Translations under genes and position numbers: made by a program | Shown: piece after piece, positions 1,492 through 16,429 of the stretch | How the letters are laid out: each line of letters starts with the position of its first letter | Numbering within the stretch: position 1 is the stretch's first letter | Origin: Shigella phage Sf20 | Sequence record: MF327006 | Strand: one strand, 5' to 3' | Length of the DNA stretch: 64,000 bases | The notes under the pieces: model-generated | The model's database searches: none | What the model was told of the DNA's origin: nothing | The model's input: only the letters and a program-made list of their open reading frames with translations

Positions 1492-2661
1492 TTACCAATC
1501 AATCTTATCAGCCGGAATCAGTTTCTTATAATTCCGTAGATAGTAAGTTTTCATTGAAGCCAGAATACGGTCATAATCAAGACCATCAAATGCAATCATC
1601 AGACACATGAAAATATATGCTTGTGCATCACCGTGTTTACGTGATTCGATAGTCGCATTTGATGCATATGTCTTTCTGTCTTCTCCCGCGTGTGCGTTAT
1701 AAAATTCTGTTGCTGTCGTGAAGGCATTGCGAAGAATAGACCTGAATGCTTCCTCGAATAGCTCGATTCGTTCCAGTGCTTCCGGTTCGCCTTCATATGC
1801 AGCACGCAAATCATCGGTTTCGCTTTCTACGACATAGTAGATCAGGTTATTAGGAAACATCGATGTGTTTTTAATGTTATGCACACCAATATACCATTCA
1901 CTCTTCACTTTGAACAGTTGACCGTCTTTAGTGCGTGCAACAATTCCTTCGATACCTTCTGCGGTCCGAACTTCATCAAGAATATTGCTAAAACGCGCTG
2001 AATCAACCTGTAGCGCATTTACCAGATGAGGACGTAGGATTGCGTCAGCAAATAGCATTTGATGCGGTACGTACTCTCCTGTGACGTTATGGCGTACATT
2101 CAGAAGTGTTAGCGACGGTTCAGAATATTCTACAACAATTCGGTTGCTGGGTGCTGTATATTCAAAGTTGAAAGTATAATCAGACCCAATATCAGCAATC
2201 TTAGCGCGTAGATCCGCATACTTCTCTGAATACAGAAGACCGTTTGCTCTCTCTGCCTGGCTTGAGTACAAGGCCGCTTTAGACTTCAACTGAACATAGC
2301 CGTTATCAATGTATGTGCTTACTAGACTACCGTCCATTTTGTCCATGACCATTTCCACATCTTCCGGCTTAAAGCGAGCGCGATCATTCTCACCCAAATT
2401 AAAAAACTTCTCCATAGGACGAGATGCGATGCGGACCGGACGACCTTTATCGTCAATTTCAAACATGATCCCGCGACACTCTAACGCATCTGGTTTATTC
2501 CACATTTCAGGTTTGCTCAAGTACAGATAGCTAAAAATGCGCATACGGGTTTGCATCGCCGTAATTTCATCTTTGTAATAGAACGTATCAGATCCGTCAC
2601 ATAGTGCCATCAGATTTTTGAACAATGCTAAAACTTTTTTGTTGTTTTCTTTTGTTGACAT
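1492..2661 (-). CDS. rnlA: RNA ligase 1
   Basis: 389 aa; NLMALC...RIFSYLY...RPVRIASRPMEKFFNL...FNFEYTAPSNRIV... strongly T4 gp63-like; ATG at 2659-2661. Confidence 0.9.
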   Translation of the reverse strand: MSTKENNKKVLALFKNLMALCDGSDTFYYKDEITAMQTRMRIFSYLYLSKPEMWNKPDALECRGIMFEIDDKGRPVRIASRPMEKFFNLGENDRARFKPEDVEMVMDKMDGSLVSTYIDNGYVQLKSKAALYSSQAERANGLLYSEKYADLRAKIADIGSDYTFNFEYTAPSNRIVVEYSEPSLTLLNVRHNVTGEYVPHQMLFADAILRPHLVNALQVDSARFSNILDEVRTAEGIEGIVARTKDGQLFKVKSEWYIGVHNIKNTSMFPNNLIYYVVESETDDLRAAYEGEPEALERIELFEEAFRSILRNAFTTATEFYNAHAGEDRKTYASNATIESRKHGDAQAYIFMCLMIAFDGLDYDRILASMKTYYLRNYKKLIPADKIDW

Positions 2662-3058
2662 AATTTGTGTTCCATTCTGGTTTAAATTTGGTGATCAAAA
2701 CAGGTTCTTCGATATCGGCAGTGCTTATAATATCTTTACCCGTTGGATTCTCAATATATAACTCAAAGCACTGGCGGTAATAGAATGTTACTGTCTTACC
2801 TTCCTCTAGCGCCTTATGAATATTCTTACTCTTGCGAGTATCCGCTGTTGGTGTTTGTCTGTTAATGCTAGTCCGGTAATAATTGATCCGCTTTCTGAGA
2901 TTGACAGTCTGACCAATATATACCAGTTCATCATCAACAACAATAGCGTAAAGAACATTTAAACGGTTCTTCTGAGGCGGCAGAATCACATCACCATCTT
3001 TACACTCTAAACATGAATATTTAACGAATCCATAGTTTTCTATTAGCTCATTAATCAT
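2597..3058 (-). CDS. denA: endonuclease II (GIY-YIG family)
   Basis: YGFVKYSCLE...NVLYAIVVDDELVYIGQTVNLRKRINYYRT matches T4 EndoII GIY-YIG core; SD GAGGAAAGG; 3' end overlaps rnlA start by ~65 nt. Confidence 0.8.
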   Translation of the reverse strand: MINELIENYGFVKYSCLECKDGDVILPPQKNRLNVLYAIVVDDELVYIGQTVNLRKRINYYRTSINRQTPTADTRKSKNIHKALEEGKTVTFYYRQCFELYIENPTGKDIISTADIEEPVLITKFKPEWNTNYVNKRKQQKSFSIVQKSDGTM

Positions 3059-3108
3059 TATCCTTTCCTCACGTCACAACAAAGGCGGGATTTCTCCCGC
3101 CCACCTTA

Positions 3109-3507
3109 TTAACTTTCCAGAATATCGCGAGCTTCGTTACGATCCTTGATGATTTTCAAGACAAATTCCAGTTTTTCTTTGTTCAGCGTTCCATTTTCCA
3201 TTGCTTCTTTGACGGTAAACACTCCGCCACCTTGCCCGTATACAGTGACAGTGATTTCACCTAACATCGTGGTATGAAAACCGCCAATTTTCGGTGATTC
3301 GAAAGAAACAATTACCTCGCGAACAGTATTACCGTCGTTGATTTCTGAGAGGGTAATGTCGTTTTTGTAGGCGGTTGCTTTAACCATACGGATCAGCATA
3401 GTCTGATCTGGGGAGATGGTCATTTTGTCCATTGCATGTTGCAATGCAGCGTAACCGAAAACTTTAACGAAGTCCAGAACGTCTTTGCGAGTTTGAAATT
3501 TAATCAT
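3109..3507 (-). CDS. hypothetical protein
   Basis: ORF track 132 aa; SD AAGGAG; preceded by promoter+stem-loop cassette. Confidence 0.5.
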   Translation of the reverse strand: MIKFQTRKDVLDFVKVFGYAALQHAMDKMTISPDQTMLIRMVKATAYKNDITLSEINDGNTVREVIVSFESPKIGGFHTTMLGEITVTVYGQGGGVFTVKEAMENGTLNKEKLEFVLKIIKDRNEARDILES

Positions 3508-8940: not shown

Positions 8941-10173
8941 TTATACTGCCATTTGAGCGGTGATTGCTGGATGGCTTTGATAGTTGTGAATTTTAAAGTC
9001 TTTCGGAGTCTTTGTCAATACCTCATCTAAAGATTTAAATTCCGGCAACTCAATTGTTGGTTTATCAAACGGAACACGGCTTAACTGTTCCATAACTTGA
9101 TCAAAGTGGTTTTTGTAAATGTGAGTATCTCCACCAGAGAAAATCAGTTCTCCTACCTCAAGATCACACATTTTCGCTATGATGTGAGTTAACAGCGCAT
9201 AGCTGGCGACGTTAAAGGGCAAGCCCAAAAAGCTATCTACGCTTCTCTGAAACCACATGCAAGATAGTTTACCTTCATTGACATAGAATTGCACGAAAGG
9301 ATGACATACACCTAATACAGCATTATGTGTTCCTTGTACGTTCCATGAGTCAATGATGATACGTCGATCCGTTGGATTGTTTTTAATTTGTTCAATCACG
9401 TTTTGTAACTGGTCTTCCCAAATCTTCGGGCGATAGACATATTCTTCATCGTCTTTAGTGCTCGATGTGTCTACGTCCATACTAGCAAAGATCGTGGTAT
9501 CTGGTGCTAAAATATCCCCACCCAGATAATCACTATCAAGCAGATAACCGAAATAACCATCATCTACCCATTCCTGGAATCCCCACAAGCAATATGCATC
9601 ATTAACAAAATTAGATTGAGTCTTCCAGTGATCGGCTACTAAGAATTGATTATATTCAGAATCAAACTCTTCATAACGCATACCACGCCAGATAGCACAT
9701 AAACGGTCTTCTGTGTCATTGGTTGGCGTAAAGTCTTCTACCCACGGGTGTTTAAATGTATGTGTATATTTGCTCTTAACGCGCTTAATTTTGATTTCAC
9801 CATGTGGATGAATCGGTTTGCGTCGCCACGCCATACCATACATATTGCCGACATTATAACCATTGAATCGCAAAGGATTCTTTTCTTTCATATCAAGACA
9901 GTTGCCGCGCCAAATGTCGAAGGCTTCTTCGTCAAACTTGCCGCGTGTAATTTCTTGTAAGCGACGGCGATCAAGTGATCCCTCCATAAACCATAGCAAC
10001 TCGCCAATTACAGAGGCTGTAGCCATCTTTTTAGTGGTCAGTAAGGGGAAACCCTTGCTTAAGTCAATTCGCATTTCTGCACCGAATTTAGAGAGCGTAC
10101 CTACCCCCGTGCGGTCTTCACGAGGCCAGCCATTATCAAGAACATCACGCAACAGTTTCAAATATTCTTTCAT
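8941..10173 (-). CDS. td: thymidylate synthase with ~130-aa internal insertion
   Basis: DRTGVGT, TTKK, ELLWF, RRIIIDSWNV, CHPFVQFY, LGLPFNVASYALL ThyA motifs; 410 aa versus ~265-290 typical. Confidence 0.85.
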   Translation of the reverse strand: MKEYLKLLRDVLDNGWPREDRTGVGTLSKFGAEMRIDLSKGFPLLTTKKMATASVIGELLWFMEGSLDRRRLQEITRGKFDEEAFDIWRGNCLDMKEKNPLRFNGYNVGNMYGMAWRRKPIHPHGEIKIKRVKSKYTHTFKHPWVEDFTPTNDTEDRLCAIWRGMRYEEFDSEYNQFLVADHWKTQSNFVNDAYCLWGFQEWVDDGYFGYLLDSDYLGGDILAPDTTIFASMDVDTSSTKDDEEYVYRPKIWEDQLQNVIEQIKNNPTDRRIIIDSWNVQGTHNAVLGVCHPFVQFYVNEGKLSCMWFQRSVDSFLGLPFNVASYALLTHIIAKMCDLEVGELIFSGGDTHIYKNHFDQVMEQLSRVPFDKPTIELPEFKSLDEVLTKTPKDFKIHNYQSHPAITAQMAV

Positions 10174-10408
10174 CCCACTTCCCCTTTTTCTTTGCTTTCT
10201 TACGCAGTTTTGCTACTGTCTCGCTAATGTTAATAAAAATATCGTCTGGACCGAATACAGTAACAGGTCTTGATATATCGCTATTTTCTTGTACAGGAAA
10301 CCATGACGCTTTCGATTCATCATAGAGATATTGCAACCCGTAAAGATCTTCTGCTACTGCGTAGTTTTCATGGGTTGCCGACCATAATCGAATAATATTG
10401 ATTTTCAT
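10145..10408 (-). CDS. hypothetical protein
   Basis: ORF track ORF trimmed to ATG at 10406-10408 (MKINIIRLW...); 3' end overlaps td start. Confidence 0.4.
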   Translation of the reverse strand: MKINIIRLWSATHENYAVAEDLYGLQYLYDESKASWFPVQENSDISRPVTVFGPDDIFINISETVAKLRKKAKKKGKWDERIFETVA

Positions 10409-10500
10409 TATTGTTCCCGTCCGCAGTGTAAACACCGACTACCAGCAAACATCAAAGATTCACCACAATGTTTGCACTCATAATCTGTCAGAATTTTCAT
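10408..10500 (-). CDS. zinc-ribbon micro-protein (30 aa)
   Basis: Hand-translated MKILTDYECKHCGESLMFAGSRCLHCGREQ (CxxC...CxxC); between frd stop and next start. Confidence 0.25.
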   Translation of the reverse strand: MKILTDYECKHCGESLMFAGSRCLHCGREQ

Positions 10501-10501
10501 G

Positions 10502-11071
10502 TTACGCCTTCTTACGTTCTAAAATTTGTTCGCTGATCAGGTAATCATCAAGGAAGTAATTATGTTCTTCTTTTGTTGCAAAGTCAAAATATAATTCCTG
10601 AATCATTTCCTTAGAGATACCAACATCATATTCGAACGGATCATTAATTCCTGCTCGTTGAACATACGTTAACACAATACGGTCCGCAAAGTCAACCGCT
10701 TTTTCAATCAGGGAAGGTCCGCCGATAACACTTACCAAACCTTGCGTTTTCTCTAGGGCTTTTAACAGATCCTTCAATTCAATTCCAGTATACACATCAG
10801 GTTGGTCGCCGTTTTTAGCTTTCGGTTCTGGCTTGTTGGTATCGGTGCTAACAACCACATTCAAACGTCCCCAAAGTGCTTTAGGCAGACTTTCAAAGGT
10901 ATTGCGTCCCATTACTACCGCAGAAAAATCAACCTCGCCAATAGTGCGCATTTTAAAGTTTTCCATGTCCTTTTTGATTGGACGCCCCCACGGTAAACCG
11001 CCTTTAAAACCAAAAGCCCAATTTTCATCTGACATTTTAGTGTCACCAATCGCAAATACACATTGAATCAT
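10502..11071 (-). CDS. frd: dihydrofolate reductase
   Basis: 189 aa; AFGFKGGLPWGRP...VMGRNTFESLP...VIGG DHFR motifs. Confidence 0.85.
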   Translation of the reverse strand: MIQCVFAIGDTKMSDENWAFGFKGGLPWGRPIKKDMENFKMRTIGEVDFSAVVMGRNTFESLPKALWGRLNVVVSTDTNKPEPKAKNGDQPDVYTGIELKDLLKALEKTQGLVSVIGGPSLIEKAVDFADRIVLTYVQRAGINDPFEYDVGISKEMIQELYFDFATKEEHNYFLDDYLISEQILERKKA

Positions 11072-11086
11072 AATATAAATCTCCCA

Positions 11087-11416
11087 TCAAATCAGTTTGA
11101 AATAGTTTTCGTTTACATTTTCTTCTGTGATTGCTGTCTTAAATTCTTGACCGTTATCCGGTGTGATGAAATAACGGTCAGAATAATCACGAAAACGTTT
11201 TAAGTGAGATACCCCAACATTAACACCATTTTCCCAAAAACGAAAGGTAATCATTTTTGGTTCATATCGATAGTCGCTGGTTAACACAGTACCATCACCG
11301 CGACGGGCTTCATAAACCGTAATACATTCACGATTAGCGGCTTTAAGACATTCTTCAATAGTGCCGCACGAGATAATACTTAATTTTTCATCTACGATTT
11401 GTTCTACAGTCCACAT
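11087..11416 (-). CDS. hypothetical protein
   Basis: ORF trimmed to ATG at 11414-11416 with SD GAGAGGA. Confidence 0.45.
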   Translation of the reverse strand: MWTVEQIVDEKLSIISCGTIEECLKAANRECITVYEARRGDGTVLTSDYRYEPKMITFRFWENGVNVGVSHLKRFRDYSDRYFITPDNGQEFKTAITEENVNENYFKLI

Positions 11417-11447
11417 AATATAATCCTCTCTTTGTTTCGATATGTGC

Positions 11448-11475
11448 ATTATACACTATTGCGTTACGCTGTCAA
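11448..11475 (-). promoter_or_regulatory. sigma70-type early promoter
   Basis: Minus sense TTGACA-N16-TATAAT. Confidence 0.55.
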
Positions 11476-12273
11476 CTCTTTTTCAAAAGATTTTACGATA
11501 TACATTAAATTTCTAATTTCGGACGGTGGGATTGTCTCTGTCCACCCGTCCGGCATAACTTTTTGCGATACGTGGCGTGTTTTATTACTAAGTTTTTGTC
11601 GAACAATACCCTCTAATTTTAGGGGTATGTTTCCATCTTTAGTTGTTAACGTATGGAATATAAAGTGACGAACGGAAGACACGCTGGATTGCTGTTTCAT
11701 CCTTTCCTCGGCTTTTTTGTTAGTGATTCCGAACTTATACCCGACAATACAACCCCAATTATCAACCAGTTTTTGTATATAAAAGGTTCCTGGTTTTCTT
11801 TTATCATAACCTCCTTTTTGAGTGGGACATTTCGGACACTGCATATCATCTAAAGATGCGACATATTTGCCATGAACGCAGCAATCCATACTTAGATTCT
11901 TTTCTCTTGCATTAATATACCCATTAATAAATCCATTGGATTTTACTTTTTCATTATGAGAACAAAATTCATCAATTCGTATATTTGCTGATATAACATT
12001 TTTTCTTCTCATTCGTTCCATCCAACATTCTTGACAACCACCTCCCCCATTTTTAAGTATATCGATAGTGGTTAATTTTTGCTTGTGGTTTGGATTTAAT
12101 CCACAAGCAATTTTAATTTTAGATCGTACACCAGACCACTCATAGAATCCCAAATATATCATATCTCCGCTTTTTATTTTTGGCGAATTTAATGCTTCAT
12201 TTTCAATCTCAATTGGAGATTTTGAATTATAGTAATGGATATATTCTATATCTTTAGCAAATCTGGTGTTCAT
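11464..12273 (-). CDS. Cys-rich protein with possible C-terminal GIY-YIG-like (T5orf172-like) fold
   Basis: ORF trimmed to ATG 12271-12273 with SD GGAGGA; CQEC, CCVHG, CPKCP clusters; C-terminal FYIQKL...VGYKFGIT...ERMKQ. Confidence 0.45.
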   Translation of the reverse strand: MNTRFAKDIEYIHYYNSKSPIEIENEALNSPKIKSGDMIYLGFYEWSGVRSKIKIACGLNPNHKQKLTTIDILKNGGGGCQECWMERMRRKNVISANIRIDEFCSHNEKVKSNGFINGYINAREKNLSMDCCVHGKYVASLDDMQCPKCPTQKGGYDKRKPGTFYIQKLVDNWGCIVGYKFGITNKKAEERMKQQSSVSSVRHFIFHTLTTKDGNIPLKLEGIVRQKLSNKTRHVSQKVMPDGWTETIPPSEIRNLMYIVKSFEKELTA

Positions 12274-12300
12274 TTTGTCCTCCGTTGTTTCTATGCTTGC

Positions 12301-12328
12301 ATTATACATTATCTCGGATCAGTGTCAA
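12301..12328 (-). promoter_or_regulatory. sigma70-type early promoter
   Basis: Minus sense TTGACA-N16-TATAAT. Confidence 0.55.
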
Positions 12329-12342
12329 CACCTTTTTCATAA

Positions 12343-12371
12343 AAATTTAGGCAATAAAAAAGCCTCCCCTT
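12343..12371 (-). terminator. intrinsic terminator downstream of gene 32
   Basis: Minus-sense hairpin GCCUCCCC-GAA-GGGGAGGC followed by UUUUUUAUU. Confidence 0.7.
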
Positions 12372-12391
12372 CGGGGAGGCTATAAAATTCA

Positions 12392-13360
12392 TCACATCGC
12401 TAACAGAGAGTCCAGGTCATCCAGATCAGAAGCGGAGGAAGTACCGCCACCCAGGTCCAGAGATGCCATCAGGTCATCAGCGGAAGAATCTAACGCCGTG
12501 CTAGCTGCATTAATACCAACTACAGTGCTAGCTGCGGTCATACCAGAATCGAATGCATTCATCTGTGCGTCAAAATCGTCAAGCTGGCTGTTAATCGCTG
12601 CCGCAGCACTGGAAGCCGCAGCACCAGCTACCATAGAAACGCCCATAGTTTTCTTAAATTTGGTTTCCAGTTCATCGAACGGTTTAAACTGGCTAGGCGC
12701 TACAATCTCACTCAGATCAACCATGTTTTCCATCAGATATTTCTGATATGCTTCGTCTTCAATTTTCGGAAGCTGTGATTGCTGCATGAAACGAGAATCA
12801 TCATAGTTCTGGTGTTTATCAACCTTCTTAGCTTTCAGGAGGAAGTTAGCACCAGAGAACACACAAGTTACATCGACCGGAACTTCGCCCATATCGGTAT
12901 TCACGTTAACCATTGCAACGATCTTATCATAAATTTTCTGACCGAAGCGGAATTTGAATACCTTACCTTCATTTTCTGGTGCTTGAGGATCTTTCAGTAC
13001 CAGAATATTTGCGTAGTAAGACGCTTTACGCTTAATCAGTTGCCATTCGGTTTTATCGGTATTGTACAGGTCTTTTTCGTTAATATATTTGCACACAGGG
13101 CAAGAATCAAAATCACCGTGGGTGCTGGAGCAGTTTTCCCAATACCATTTACCATTAACTTTGAAGGAATGGTTTACCAGTTTCACAATCGGCAGACCGT
13201 CTTCTGTCTTAGACGGCAGGAAGCGAATCAGTGCTTCACCGTTACCTGCTGCATCAGTCTTAATCTTCCACTCTTTCGGATCTTCTTTGGAGAAACCGTT
13301 GCCACCTTTCAGTGCGGCCAGTTGAGCTTGCAGTTTGGAAGAATCTTGGCGTTTAAACAT
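12392..13360 (-). CDS. 32: single-stranded DNA-binding protein
   Basis: [19 protein letters not shown] zinc site, [18 protein letters not shown], acidic C-terminus DLDDLDSLL; ATG at 13358-13360. Confidence 0.95.
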
Positions 13361-13396
13361 ATTCACTATTCCTTCTTTTGATTGATTTACTAGACT

Positions 13397-13424
13397 ATTA
13401 TACAGATTTAAATTTACTTGTCAA
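13397..13424 (-). promoter_or_regulatory. sigma70-type promoter upstream of gene 32
   Basis: Minus sense TTGACA-N16-TATAAT. Confidence 0.5.
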
Positions 13425-14101
13425 CTATTTGTTTCGGCTTTTAATTGAGATATTTCTTTACACTCTTTAACTACTTTAACAAATAATGCTCTTGCTTTTG
13501 CGGCGTCAATAACAAGTAGTTTCTTGTACGCCTTCATTTTAACACTATAAGTTTGCCAAATCAAGTCTTTGGCTACCTTATCGTGTTCGTCGATTATATT
13601 TAGAAAGCTATCTAACAACATAAACGACTCAAACGATATAATCCGATTTTGCAGTAGTTTAAAAATACCGCTTGTTTCGGTTGCGGGATTATATGTAATT
13701 AGCTCTTTAAGAGTAACCCCGCGTTTCTCGGAGAAGTATACCAGACTTTTAATGTCATCGTCAAATCGTGTTGCTGCATCGGTTATCTTTCCTATGTATT
13801 CCATATAAAAGCCGTATGCGTCAACATCAGTGATTTCACCTACCCATGCATCGGTATTAGCTACCAGATTGCTTAGGAATAGGAAGTATAATTCTCTTAG
13901 ATTGTACTTTTCCGCTAATTTTGCGAAATAATACTTATCTCTGCGTTTATTGAATGCGGCATCAGACAACCGCATCCTCCAATTGTATTTTACGCAATCA
14001 TAACGCCCGTTCATGTGAGCTTTCATCATGCAATATAACATATACACAGATTTAGCATTAATTCGCATATCTGGATCTGGAGGAAGACGGTTTCTGATCA
14101 T
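13421..14101 (-). CDS. 59: helicase loader
   Basis: 226 aa; KSVYMLYCMMKAHMNGRYDCVKYNWRMRLSDAAFNKRRDKYYF... matches T4 gp59. Confidence 0.85.
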   Translation of the reverse strand: MIRNRLPPDPDMRINAKSVYMLYCMMKAHMNGRYDCVKYNWRMRLSDAAFNKRRDKYYFAKLAEKYNLRELYFLFLSNLVANTDAWVGEITDVDAYGFYMEYIGKITDAATRFDDDIKSLVYFSEKRGVTLKELITYNPATETSGIFKLLQNRIISFESFMLLDSFLNIIDEHDKVAKDLIWQTYSVKMKAYKKLLVIDAAKARALFVKVVKECKEISQLKAETNS

Positions 14102-16383: not shown

Positions 16384-16421
16384 AATATATCATCCTCTTT
16401 TGTTTCTATCAAGCCTCATTT

Positions 16422-16429
16422 TATAAATA
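16422..16429 (+). promoter_or_regulatory. T4-type late promoter (TATAAATA) for gene 34
   Basis: Exact TATAAATA ~28 nt upstream of the gene 34 ATG. Confidence 0.6.

What the first reader, a model, noticed from the sequence alone, without database searches (positions are those of the whole stretch)
11464..12273. Cys-rich protein with a possible GIY-YIG-like module between frd and gene 32
This 269-aa product has several Cys clusters (CQEC, CCVHG, CPKCP) suggesting zinc ribbons, followed by FYIQKL...VGYKFGIT...ERMKQ, which resembles GIY-YIG/T5orf172-type nuclease folds. It has its own consensus promoter and sits where T4 carries frd.1-frd.3 and mobile endonucleases.
Basis: inference. Interest (0 to 1): 0.4.

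Follow-up and report, generated by a model that had tools for sequence, protein, structure and literature searches.

The report
Zinc-finger T5orf172-type homing endonuclease gene
This gene in an RB49-like (T4-type) coliphage most likely encodes a selfish, site-specific DNA-cutting enzyme made of two zinc fingers and a GIY-YIG-superfamily nuclease; it belongs to an already described family, so it is a well-supported but ordinary find.

Summary
The window is a Krischvirus (RB49-like) phage.

**Protein.** It matches PHROG 681 "endonuclease" (E 2.5e-46). It belongs to the published family of putative homing endonucleases that combine CapR-type zinc fingers with a C-terminal T5orf172/MUG113 nuclease of the GIY-YIG clan. 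Members include T5.141, RB49p240 and ICP1 genes.

**Limits of the fold evidence.**
- The query itself hits no Pfam model.
- The link is transitive: 21 of 27 relatives hit MUG113 and 12 of 27 hit T5orf172.
- The confident AlphaFold model matches viral GIY-YIG/T5orf172 models.
- It matches no solved PDB structure significantly.

**Locus.** The slot between gene 32 and the frd.1-like gene varies among 58 related genomes. It is empty, holds an unrelated 109-aa ORF, holds longer alleles with more fingers, or holds this short allele (3 genomes; two carry frameshifts).

**Cassette.** It has its own perfect sigma-70 promoter. It is bounded by ~70-bp promoter repeats of the PeSL type. The last codons of the ORF encode the -35 box of the next promoter.

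**Verdict.** This is a new member of a known kind. Nuclease activity, target site and homing are untested.

The parts
12361..12381 (-). G+C-rich stem-loop terminator after gene 32. It forms the stem-loop half of a PeSL-type promoter/terminator cassette upstream of the endonuclease gene.
   Evidence: AGCCTCCCCGAAGGGGAGGCT followed by a T run, 9 pairs. The PeSL definition comes from PMC2839356.
12301..12328 (-). The gene's own early (sigma-70 consensus) promoter, TTGACA-N16-TATAAT.
   Evidence: 12/12 match. Six such sites occur in the window against 0.07 expected.
12279..12283 (-). Shine-Dalgarno GGAGG, 5 nt upstream of the ATG at 12273.
11464..12273 (-). 269-aa ORF encoding a putative zinc-finger/T5orf172-type endonuclease. 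The stop codon is included.
   Evidence: PHROG 681 'endonuclease', E 2.5e-46. AlphaFold2 mean pLDDT 91.6.
12019..12162 (-). Zinc finger 1 (aa 38-85). The inferred ligands are C57, H63, C80 and C83.
   Evidence: C57, C80 and C83 are invariant or nearly so. The unit maps onto the DUF4379 hit of T5.141. The model shows three strands, then the CxxC knuckle and a helix.
11824..11955 (-). Zinc finger 2 (aa 107-150). The inferred ligands are C131 or C132, H134, C146 and C149.
   Evidence: This unit maps onto the Pfam CapR homology-domain hits of RB49p240 (aa 318-369) and T5.141 (aa 79-137).
11467..11793 (-). C-terminal nuclease domain (aa 161-269) of the T5orf172/MUG113 branch of the GIY-YIG superfamily. 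K180, G182, R191, E221, G243, E246 and T247 are invariant.
   Evidence: The domain model has pLDDT 95.4 and pTM 0.87 with beta-beta-alpha-beta-alpha...alpha topology. BFVD gave 101 matches at E<=1e-3.
11448..11475 (-). Perfect early promoter of the downstream frd.1-like gene. Its -35 box and spacer are encoded by the last codons of the endonuclease ORF (GAG TTG ACA GCG TAA = E L T A stop).
   Evidence: The same arrangement is seen in RB49 and, in another reading frame, at the end of the unrelated small ORF of G5211.
11432..11502 (.). Downstream copy of the ~70-bp direct repeat that bounds the cassette.
   Evidence: 73-76% identity to 12285-12356, spacing 853-854. Also seen.
12285..12356 (.). 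Upstream copy of the ~70-bp direct repeat that bounds the cassette.
   Evidence: Genomes with the empty site carry a single chimeric copy.

Best explanation
The gene encodes a free-standing, sequence-directed DNA endonuclease of the 'CapR-type zinc finger + T5orf172' class, and it behaves as a homing endonuclease gene.

Proposed mechanism:
1. The gene is transcribed immediately after infection from its own sigma-70 consensus promoter. The promoter is shown; the timing is inferred.
2. The protein is a string of beads. Two treble-clef zinc fingers (aa 38-85 and 107-150) are joined by a long helix and would read a specific DNA sequence (inferred).
3. A C-terminal domain of about 110 aa from the T5orf172/MUG113 branch of the GIY-YIG superfamily would cut nearby DNA, using the invariant Arg191 and Glu221/Glu246 (inferred).
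4. In a mixed infection with a related Krischvirus that lacks this allele, the enzyme would cut the rival genome near the gene 32 / frd.1 region.
5. Recombinational repair from the carrier genome would then copy the cassette in.
6. The ~70-bp promoter repeats and the conserved 3' end of the ORF supply the homology for that exchange. They also supply it for nuclease-independent gain, loss and allele swapping.
For: Family membership:
- PHROG 681 'endonuclease' E 2.5e-46 over aa 16-266.
- Homologues include RB49p240, T5.141 and proteins named GIY-YIG nuclease by their sources.

Domains:
- Relatives hit Pfam CapR, DUF4379 and DUF723 zinc fingers. These hits map onto query aa 59-86 and 96-150.
- Among the C-terminal domains of 27 relatives, 21 hit MUG113, 12 hit T5orf172 and 3 hit GIY-YIG.
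- P0017, P0037 and P0088 pass the curated cut-offs.
- Invariant residues in the nuclease domain are K180, G182, R191, E221, G243, E246 and T247.

Structure:
- The AlphaFold2 models are confident, with pLDDT 91.6 for the full protein and 95.4 for the domain. The domain topology is beta-beta-alpha-beta-alpha...alpha.
- There are 101 significant BFVD matches. They include proteins annotated 'GIY-YIG domain-containing', 'Homing endonuclease' and 'T5 Orf172'.

Signatures of a selfish element:
- The site is empty in PHB13, JSE and others.
- It holds an unrelated 109-aa ORF in about 25 genomes.
- It holds longer alleles of about 338-541 aa in about 20 genomes.
- It holds this allele in only 3 genomes.
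- The MIZ4 and MIZ5 copies carry a -1 and a +1 frameshift.
- The ORF has 34.2% G+C against 40.7% for the window.
- It lies next to the essential gene 32.
- A paralogue sits at another site, between genes 2 and 3, in ECD7.

Literature:
- The family and these same signatures are described in PMC8096241 and PMC10448857.
- A T5orf172 domain has shown glutamate-dependent nuclease function in ICP1 Odn (PMC8263062).
Against: - The query alone matches no Pfam, NCBIfam or PADLOC model.
- Foldseek against the PDB gives nothing significant. The best probability is 0.47 for the GIY-YIG nuclease Slx1 at E 0.58.
- hhalign of the family profile against T4 I-TevI and SegG finds nothing.
- No co-conversion tract specific to carriers of this allele could be shown. 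The adjacent frd.1-like gene is equally conserved in carriers and non-carriers.
- An unrelated, non-nuclease ORF occupies the same slot with the same boundaries. Promoter-repeat recombination alone can therefore explain the polymorphism.
- The authors of PMC10448857 state that homing has not been shown experimentally for the T5orf172-type genes of ICP1 they analysed.
Confidence: 0.65

Rival explanations
1. The gene is a passenger of a PeSL (promoter-early/stem-loop) cassette. It moves only by ordinary homologous recombination between the promoter repeats. The nuclease serves the phage, for example by excluding competing phages or destroying satellites or host DNA, as ICP1 Odn does, rather than promoting its own spread.
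For: - The cassette is bounded by 70-bp promoter repeats.
- The empty site carries one chimeric repeat with the crossover near the Shine-Dalgarno.
- An unrelated 109-aa ORF occupies the identical slot.
- PeSL-mediated shuffling and mini-circles were demonstrated in RB49 and phi1 (PMC2839356).
- Odn shows that a T5orf172 nuclease can be put to defensive use.
Against: - The family shows the signatures that the literature treats as evidence of homing endonuclease genes: multiple insertion sites, frameshifted copies and positions next to essential genes.
- The gene has a patchy, low-frequency distribution, which argues against a strongly beneficial function.
Confidence: 0.17
2. The protein is a domesticated DNA-binding regulator. 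The zinc fingers bind a promoter, as the satellite protein CapR binds a -35 region or as I-TevI autorepresses its own promoter. Nuclease activity is lost or secondary.
For: - CapR-type fingers bind a -35 promoter element in ICP1 (PMC8096241).
- The gene sits between two consensus promoters.
Against: - The complete nuclease domain is retained with every family-invariant residue, whereas CapR aligns only with the N-terminal DNA-binding portion of such proteins.
- The gene is dispensable in most relatives.
Confidence: 0.08
3. The C-terminal domain is not a nuclease at all. T5orf172 was originally annotated as a DNA-binding domain, and the protein would have some other nucleic-acid-binding role.
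For: - No significant match to any solved GIY-YIG structure.
- No direct Pfam hit for the query.
- No similarity to I-TevI or SegG.
Against: - Family-level hits to three GIY-YIG-clan models.
- Invariant Arg and Glu residues.
- Among the non-significant PDB matches, the highest probability and the highest query-normalised TM-score (0.45) both belong to the GIY-YIG nuclease Slx1.
- Glutamate-dependent nuclease function of a T5orf172 domain in Odn.
Confidence: 0.05

Closest known systems
T5orf172-family putative homing endonucleases with CapR/DUF723/DUF4379 zinc-finger arrays (ICP1 gp121/130/165/174, T5.141; Netter 2021 PMC8096241, Barth 2023 PMC10448857)
   Same: - The architecture is the same: N-terminal repeated treble-clef zinc fingers and a C-terminal T5orf172/MUG113-type nuclease.
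- Sequence homology is direct (T5.141).
- The genomic signatures are the same: variable presence, frameshifted copies, and a position next to an essential gene.
- The same shuffling of finger arrays on a constant nuclease half is seen in the RB49-type alleles.
   Different: - This is a minimal two-finger version of 269 aa, against about 338-541 aa at the same locus.
- It is too divergent to hit the Pfam models directly.
- It resides in a T4-type (Krischvirus) genome, a group not discussed in those papers.
- It is embedded between PeSL-type promoter repeats.
RB49p240 and its alleles at the same locus (annotated 'endonuclease' in RefSeq; 'putative GIY-YIG nuclease family protein' in phage Skers)
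   Same: - They occupy the same slot between the frd.1-like gene and gene 32.
- They share the upstream PeSL and the last ~105 nt of the ORF at 94% nucleotide identity.
- They share the same C-terminal ...FEKELTA stop embedded in the downstream promoter.
   Different: - Protein identity is only about 37%, and 54% within the nuclease domain.
- RB49p240 has additional finger units.
- The window allele is therefore a replacement allele, not a deletion derivative.
T4 Seg-type free-standing GIY-YIG homing endonucleases (e.g. SegG between genes 32 and 59) and I-TevI
   Same: - It is a free-standing, intergenic, modular 'beads on a string' enzyme next to gene 32 in a T4-type genome.
- It belongs to the same superfamily through the Pfam clan.
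- I-TevI also contains a zinc finger in its DNA-binding part.
   Different: - The domain order is reversed; here the nuclease is C-terminal.
- No sequence or profile similarity is detectable.
- The canonical GIY and YIG tyrosine motifs are replaced by FYIQ and KFGIT.
PeSL cassettes of RB49/phi1 (Arbiol et al. 2010, PMC2839356)
   Same: - The upstream element has a G+C stem-loop terminator, an AT-rich tract and a consensus sigma-70 promoter.
- A variable ORF is flanked by two related promoter repeats.
- The insertion/deletion breakpoints fall inside the repeats.
   Different: - The downstream repeat has the promoter but no stem-loop, and it overlaps the coding 3' end.
- The cargo here is a putative nuclease rather than an ORFan.

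Membership tests
T5orf172/MUG113 branch of the GIY-YIG nuclease superfamily | Significant match of the protein itself to PF10544, PF13455 or PF01541 | tested here: not met
   At E<=10 the query hits only YkyB, at 0.14. The isolated domain also gave no clan hit at E<=1 (part A).
T5orf172/MUG113 branch of the GIY-YIG nuclease superfamily | Homology to proteins that do match those models (transitive membership) | tested here: met
   - Among 27 homologous domains, 21 hit MUG113, 12 hit T5orf172 and 3 hit GIY-YIG.
- P0017 scores MUG113 24.4 against a cut-off of 22.3, and T5orf172 20.2 against 20.
- P0088 scores MUG113 26.1, and P0037 scores T5orf172 20.9.
- The MUG113 hits map to query aa 179-229.
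T5orf172/MUG113 branch of the GIY-YIG nuclease superfamily | Conserved catalytic Arg in helix 1 and Glu after strand 3 | tested here: met
   R191, E221 and E246 are invariant in 27 domains and present in the query. Their equivalence to I-TevI R27/E75 and Odn E180 is inferred, not aligned here.
T5orf172/MUG113 branch of the GIY-YIG nuclease superfamily | GIY-YIG alpha/beta fold | tested here: inconclusive
   - The model topology beta-beta-alpha-beta-alpha...alpha fits the fold.
- BFVD matches include proteins annotated GIY-YIG and T5orf172, at E 1e-9 to 1e-6.
- Against the PDB the best results are only Slx1 (prob 0.47, E 0.58) and UvrC (E 0.91).
T5orf172/MUG113 branch of the GIY-YIG nuclease superfamily | Metal-dependent DNA cleavage | not testable with these tools
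   This needs biochemistry. The precedent is ICP1 Odn E180A (PMC8263062).
CapR / DUF4379 / DUF723 treble-clef zinc-finger DNA-binding domains | Match to PF21817, PF14311 or PF05265 | tested here: inconclusive
   The query has no direct hit. Relatives hit strongly, and those hits align to query aa 59-86 and 96-150.
CapR / DUF4379 / DUF723 treble-clef zinc-finger DNA-binding domains | Four conserved zinc ligands per unit (C/H pair plus CxxC) | tested here: met
   The ligand sets are C57/H63/C80/C83 and C131(132)/H134/C146/C149. C57, C80, C83, C131 and C149 are at least 90% conserved in 44 sequences.
Free-standing homing endonuclease gene | Presence/absence polymorphism at the same site among close relatives | tested here: met
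   The site is empty in PHB13, JSE, LF73P4, KMB43 and FL20. Other occupants are found elsewhere.
Free-standing homing endonuclease gene | Degenerate or frameshifted copies in some genomes | tested here: met
   MIZ4 and MIZ5 carry a -1 and a +1 indel that give stop codons between them. Sequencing error is not excluded.
Free-standing homing endonuclease gene | Co-conversion of flanking markers with the gene | tested here: inconclusive
   The flanks are no more similar among carriers than among non-carriers.
Free-standing homing endonuclease gene | Cleavage of the gene-less allele and super-Mendelian inheritance | not testable with these tools
   This needs in vitro cleavage assays and phage crosses.
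T4 Seg-type GIY-YIG homing endonucleases | N-terminal canonical GIY-YIG domain with similarity to I-TevI/Seg proteins | tested here: not met
   The nuclease is C-terminal. hhalign probability against I-TevI and SegG is below 1%.
PeSL mobile regulatory cassette | Stem-loop terminator plus AT-rich tract plus sigma-70 consensus promoter flanking a variable ORF on both sides | tested here: inconclusive
   - The upstream element is complete.
- The downstream element has the promoter repeat but no stem-loop.
- The indel breakpoints lie within the repeats.

The most novel reading that the evidence does not exclude
The zinc fingers of this family might recognise the early-promoter/PeSL sequences themselves. 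CapR binds a -35 element, and every allele at this locus ends inside a -35 box. The nuclease would then cut at PeSLs of rival genomes. It would be the long-sought 'helper' that drives PeSL-mediated cassette shuffling and mini-circle formation in RB49-like phages.
Probability: 0.05. Interest if true: 0.7.

Novelty: new member of a known kind. Interest (0 to 1): 0.27.

Why it matters
It adds a compact two-finger member to the T5orf172 zinc-finger endonuclease family, and places that family in T4-type (Krischvirus) coliphages. HEG biology is easy to test by crosses in these phages.

The locus is a natural allelic series with four states:
- empty
- an unrelated ORF
- several alleles with different finger arrays
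- this allele

It could be used to measure whether T5orf172 enzymes really home. By the account of the ICP1 study read here (PMC10448857), that had not been verified experimentally for its T5orf172-type genes. The locus could also separate nuclease-driven from repeat-driven cassette exchange.

Otherwise this is an expected kind of selfish gene in a phage genome.

Tried and rejected
1. Direct Pfam, NCBIfam, PADLOC and PDB-sequence searches with the query or the family profile gave no informative hit. The PPR hit is a repeat artefact.
2. Foldseek of the full-length model and the domain model against the PDB returned only noise (myosins). The GIY-YIG proteins Slx1 and UvrC appeared among the non-significant hits.
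3. hhalign of the nuclease-domain profile against T4 I-TevI and SegG found nothing. The gene is not filed as Seg-type.
4. I first read a ~99% identity block (11005-12204) shared with ELT4 and MIZ4 as a co-conversion tract. Comparison with non-carriers showed that the frd.1-like gene is equally conserved in all, so the inference was dropped.
5. The 281-aa reading from ATG 12309 was rejected because that ATG lies upstream of the -10 box.
6. No paralogue exists elsewhere in the 64-kb window.
7. A literature search for Krischvirus together with homing endonuclease found nothing specific to this gene.

Full report
**What is there**

The window is a Krischvirus (RB49-like T4-type coliphage). Region 10400-13500 is 93-97% identical to ELT4, MIZ4/5, RB49, phi1, GEC-3S and about 60 other records. 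The genes run on the minus strand in the order 59, 32 (12392-13366), the ORF in question (11464-12273), a frd.1-like gene (11087-11416), frd (10502-11071) and td. This matches T4's td-frd-frd.1..3-32-segG-59.

It is preceded by GGAGG, by a perfect TTGACA-N16-TATAAT promoter (12328-12301) and by the gene 32 terminator stem-loop (12381-12361). Perfect promoters of this form occur six times in the window against 0.07 expected.

**What the protein is**

The whole protein matches PHROG 681 'endonuclease' at E 2.5e-46. It matches no Pfam, NCBIfam or PADLOC model directly. Homologues were found by tblastn and by protein search. They include:
- RB49p240, 485 aa, at the same locus
- T5.141
- many Aeromonas, Vibrio and jumbo-phage proteins
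- an E. coli protein that UniRef names a GIY-YIG nuclease family protein

The relatives carry two to four Pfam CapR-homology, DUF4379 or DUF723 zinc-finger units. In the alignment these units fall on query aa 59-86 and 96-150. C57, C80, C83, C131 and C149 are conserved there in at least 90% of 44 sequences.

The C-terminal 110 aa form a separate domain. Of 27 diverse family members, 21 hit MUG113, 12 hit T5orf172 and 3 hit GIY-YIG. Three proteins pass Pfam's curated thresholds. K180, G182, R191, E221, G243, E246 and T247 are invariant. A profile of this domain finds 3,899 clusters at 50% identity with E<=1e-3. In the 150 best hits listed, the domain lies at or near the C-terminus.

**Structure**

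AlphaFold2 gives confident models: pLDDT 91.6 for the whole protein, and pLDDT 95.4 with pTM 0.87 for the domain. Each finger unit consists of three strands, a CxxC knuckle and a helix. The nuclease domain is beta-beta-alpha-beta-alpha...alpha, as in GIY-YIG enzymes.

Foldseek against predicted viral structures gives 101 significant matches. They include proteins annotated GIY-YIG domain-containing, homing endonuclease, T5 Orf172 domain and CapR homology domain. Against solved structures nothing is significant. The GIY-YIG nuclease Slx1 has the highest probability (0.47, TM 0.45), and UvrC's GIY-YIG domain also appears. Profile comparison with T4 I-TevI and SegG finds nothing.

Membership of the T5orf172/MUG113 branch therefore rests on transitive sequence homology, conserved residues and predicted-structure matches. 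It does not rest on a solved structure. The gene is not a Seg-type enzyme.

**The literature already describes this family**

- Netter et al. 2021 (PMC8096241) defined the CapR homology zinc finger. They linked it to ICP1 putative homing endonucleases with C-terminal T5orf172 domains and named T5 Orf141 as a relative.
- Barth et al. 2023 (PMC10448857) described the repeated finger arrays, the domain shuffling and the genomic signatures. They stated that homing had not been verified experimentally for ICP1's putative HEGs.
- Barth et al. 2021 (PMC8263062) showed glutamate-dependent nuclease function for the T5orf172 protein Odn.
- None of these papers mentions RB49-like phages.

**The locus**

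Among 58 Krischvirus records, the slot between the frd.1-like gene and gene 32 has at least four states:

| State | Genomes |
|---|---|
| Empty | PHB13, JSE, LF73P4, KMB43, FL20 |
| Unrelated 109-aa ORF with no Pfam hit | about 25, e.g. G5211, MIZ2 |
| RB49-type alleles of about 338-541 aa | about 20 |
| The window's short allele | 3 (ELT4, MIZ4, MIZ5) |

The copy in MIZ4 (and the apparently identical locus in MIZ5) has a -1 and a +1 indel that introduce stop codons. The RB49-type alleles share an identical C-terminal ~70 aa, but their finger arrays differ widely. The window allele shares only its last ~105 nt with them at the nucleotide level. The ORF has 34.2% G+C against 40.7% for the window. 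A family member sits at a different site, between genes 2 and 3, in ECD7.

**Cassette boundaries**

The cassette is bounded by direct repeats of about 70 bp, 11432-11502 and 12285-12356, which are 73-76% identical. Each repeat holds a perfect early promoter. The downstream promoter's -35 box and spacer are the ORF's last codons (GAG TTG ACA GCG TAA = ELTA stop). The same junction closes RB49p240 and, in another frame, the unrelated small ORF.

Empty-site genomes carry one chimeric repeat, with the crossover near the Shine-Dalgarno. The upstream element (stem-loop, AT-rich tract, consensus promoter) fits the PeSL cassettes shown to mediate modular shuffling in RB49 and phi1 (PMC2839356).

**Interpretation**

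The best-supported reading is a free-standing T5orf172-type homing endonuclease gene. Two zinc fingers would read the DNA and a C-terminal nuclease would cut it. The gene would be expressed early, and it would be exchanged through the flanking repeats.

Shown here:
- the gene itself
- its regulatory signals
- family homology
- conserved residues
- the confident model
- the polymorphism
- the repeat boundaries

Inferred:
- zinc and DNA binding
- catalysis
- the target site
- homing

The main rival is that mobility is purely repeat-mediated and the nuclease serves the phage. The unrelated ORF in the same slot supports this rival. So does the lack of a carrier-specific co-conversion tract (which overturned my first reading).

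**Verdict**

This is a new member of a known kind and of modest interest.

Noticed in passing
window 8941-10173 (-): The thymidylate synthase is 410 aa. The Pfam model matches in two stretches, the better-scoring one resuming at about aa 254 (profile position 110). By inference, an in-frame insertion of roughly 130-140 aa separates the two stretches. The same gene length (1233 nt) is annotated in RB49, MIZ4, ELT4 and MIZ2, whereas T4 td has a group I intron with I-TevI instead.
   Followed up: partly
L001 (MIZ4) 2577-3385; MIZ5 has an apparently identical locus (identical match statistics and coordinates): The MIZ4 copy of this endonuclease gene has a 1-nt deletion and a 1-nt insertion about 120 nt apart, which create stop codons. 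The record annotates only the 3' 549 nt as 'endonuclease'. This could be real decay or homopolymer sequencing error.
   Followed up: partly
window 13366-13432 and about 16401-16423: The window lacks two other endonuclease genes that ELT4 carries: a 597-nt HNH gene between genes 32 and 59 (also present in MIZ4), and a 564-nt 'homing endonuclease' next to gene 34. The region is therefore a cluster of variable endonuclease slots around gene 32.
   Followed up: partly
window 10105-10404: This patch covers the small ORFs between td and frd. The window differs there by about 15% from all five relatives compared, while the neighbouring sequence differs by 1-5%. It looks like a window-specific mosaic replacement.
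   Followed up: no
P0043, P0044, P0045 (metagenomic relatives): Related zinc-finger proteins lack the T5orf172-type domain. P0043 and P0044 have different, unaligned C-terminal sequence in its place, and P0045 carries PF18741. This suggests the finger array is reused with other effector domains.
   Followed up: no
L006 (ECD7) 1695-2729: A 344-aa member of the same family sits between late genes 2 and 3. It overlaps the end of gene 2 by 8 nt, and no promoter feature is annotated there. This is a second insertion site for the family in Krischvirus.
   Followed up: no
L005 (G5211) 873-1202: An unrelated 109-aa ORF with no Pfam match occupies the same slot in about 25 Krischvirus genomes. It also terminates inside the -35 box of the downstream promoter. 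Its function is unknown.
   Followed up: partly
window 11448, 12301, 13397, 15759, 38976, 52365 (all minus strand): There are six perfect TTGACA-N16-TATAAT sites against 0.07 expected by chance. Three of them bracket gene 32 and the endonuclease gene.
   Followed up: partly
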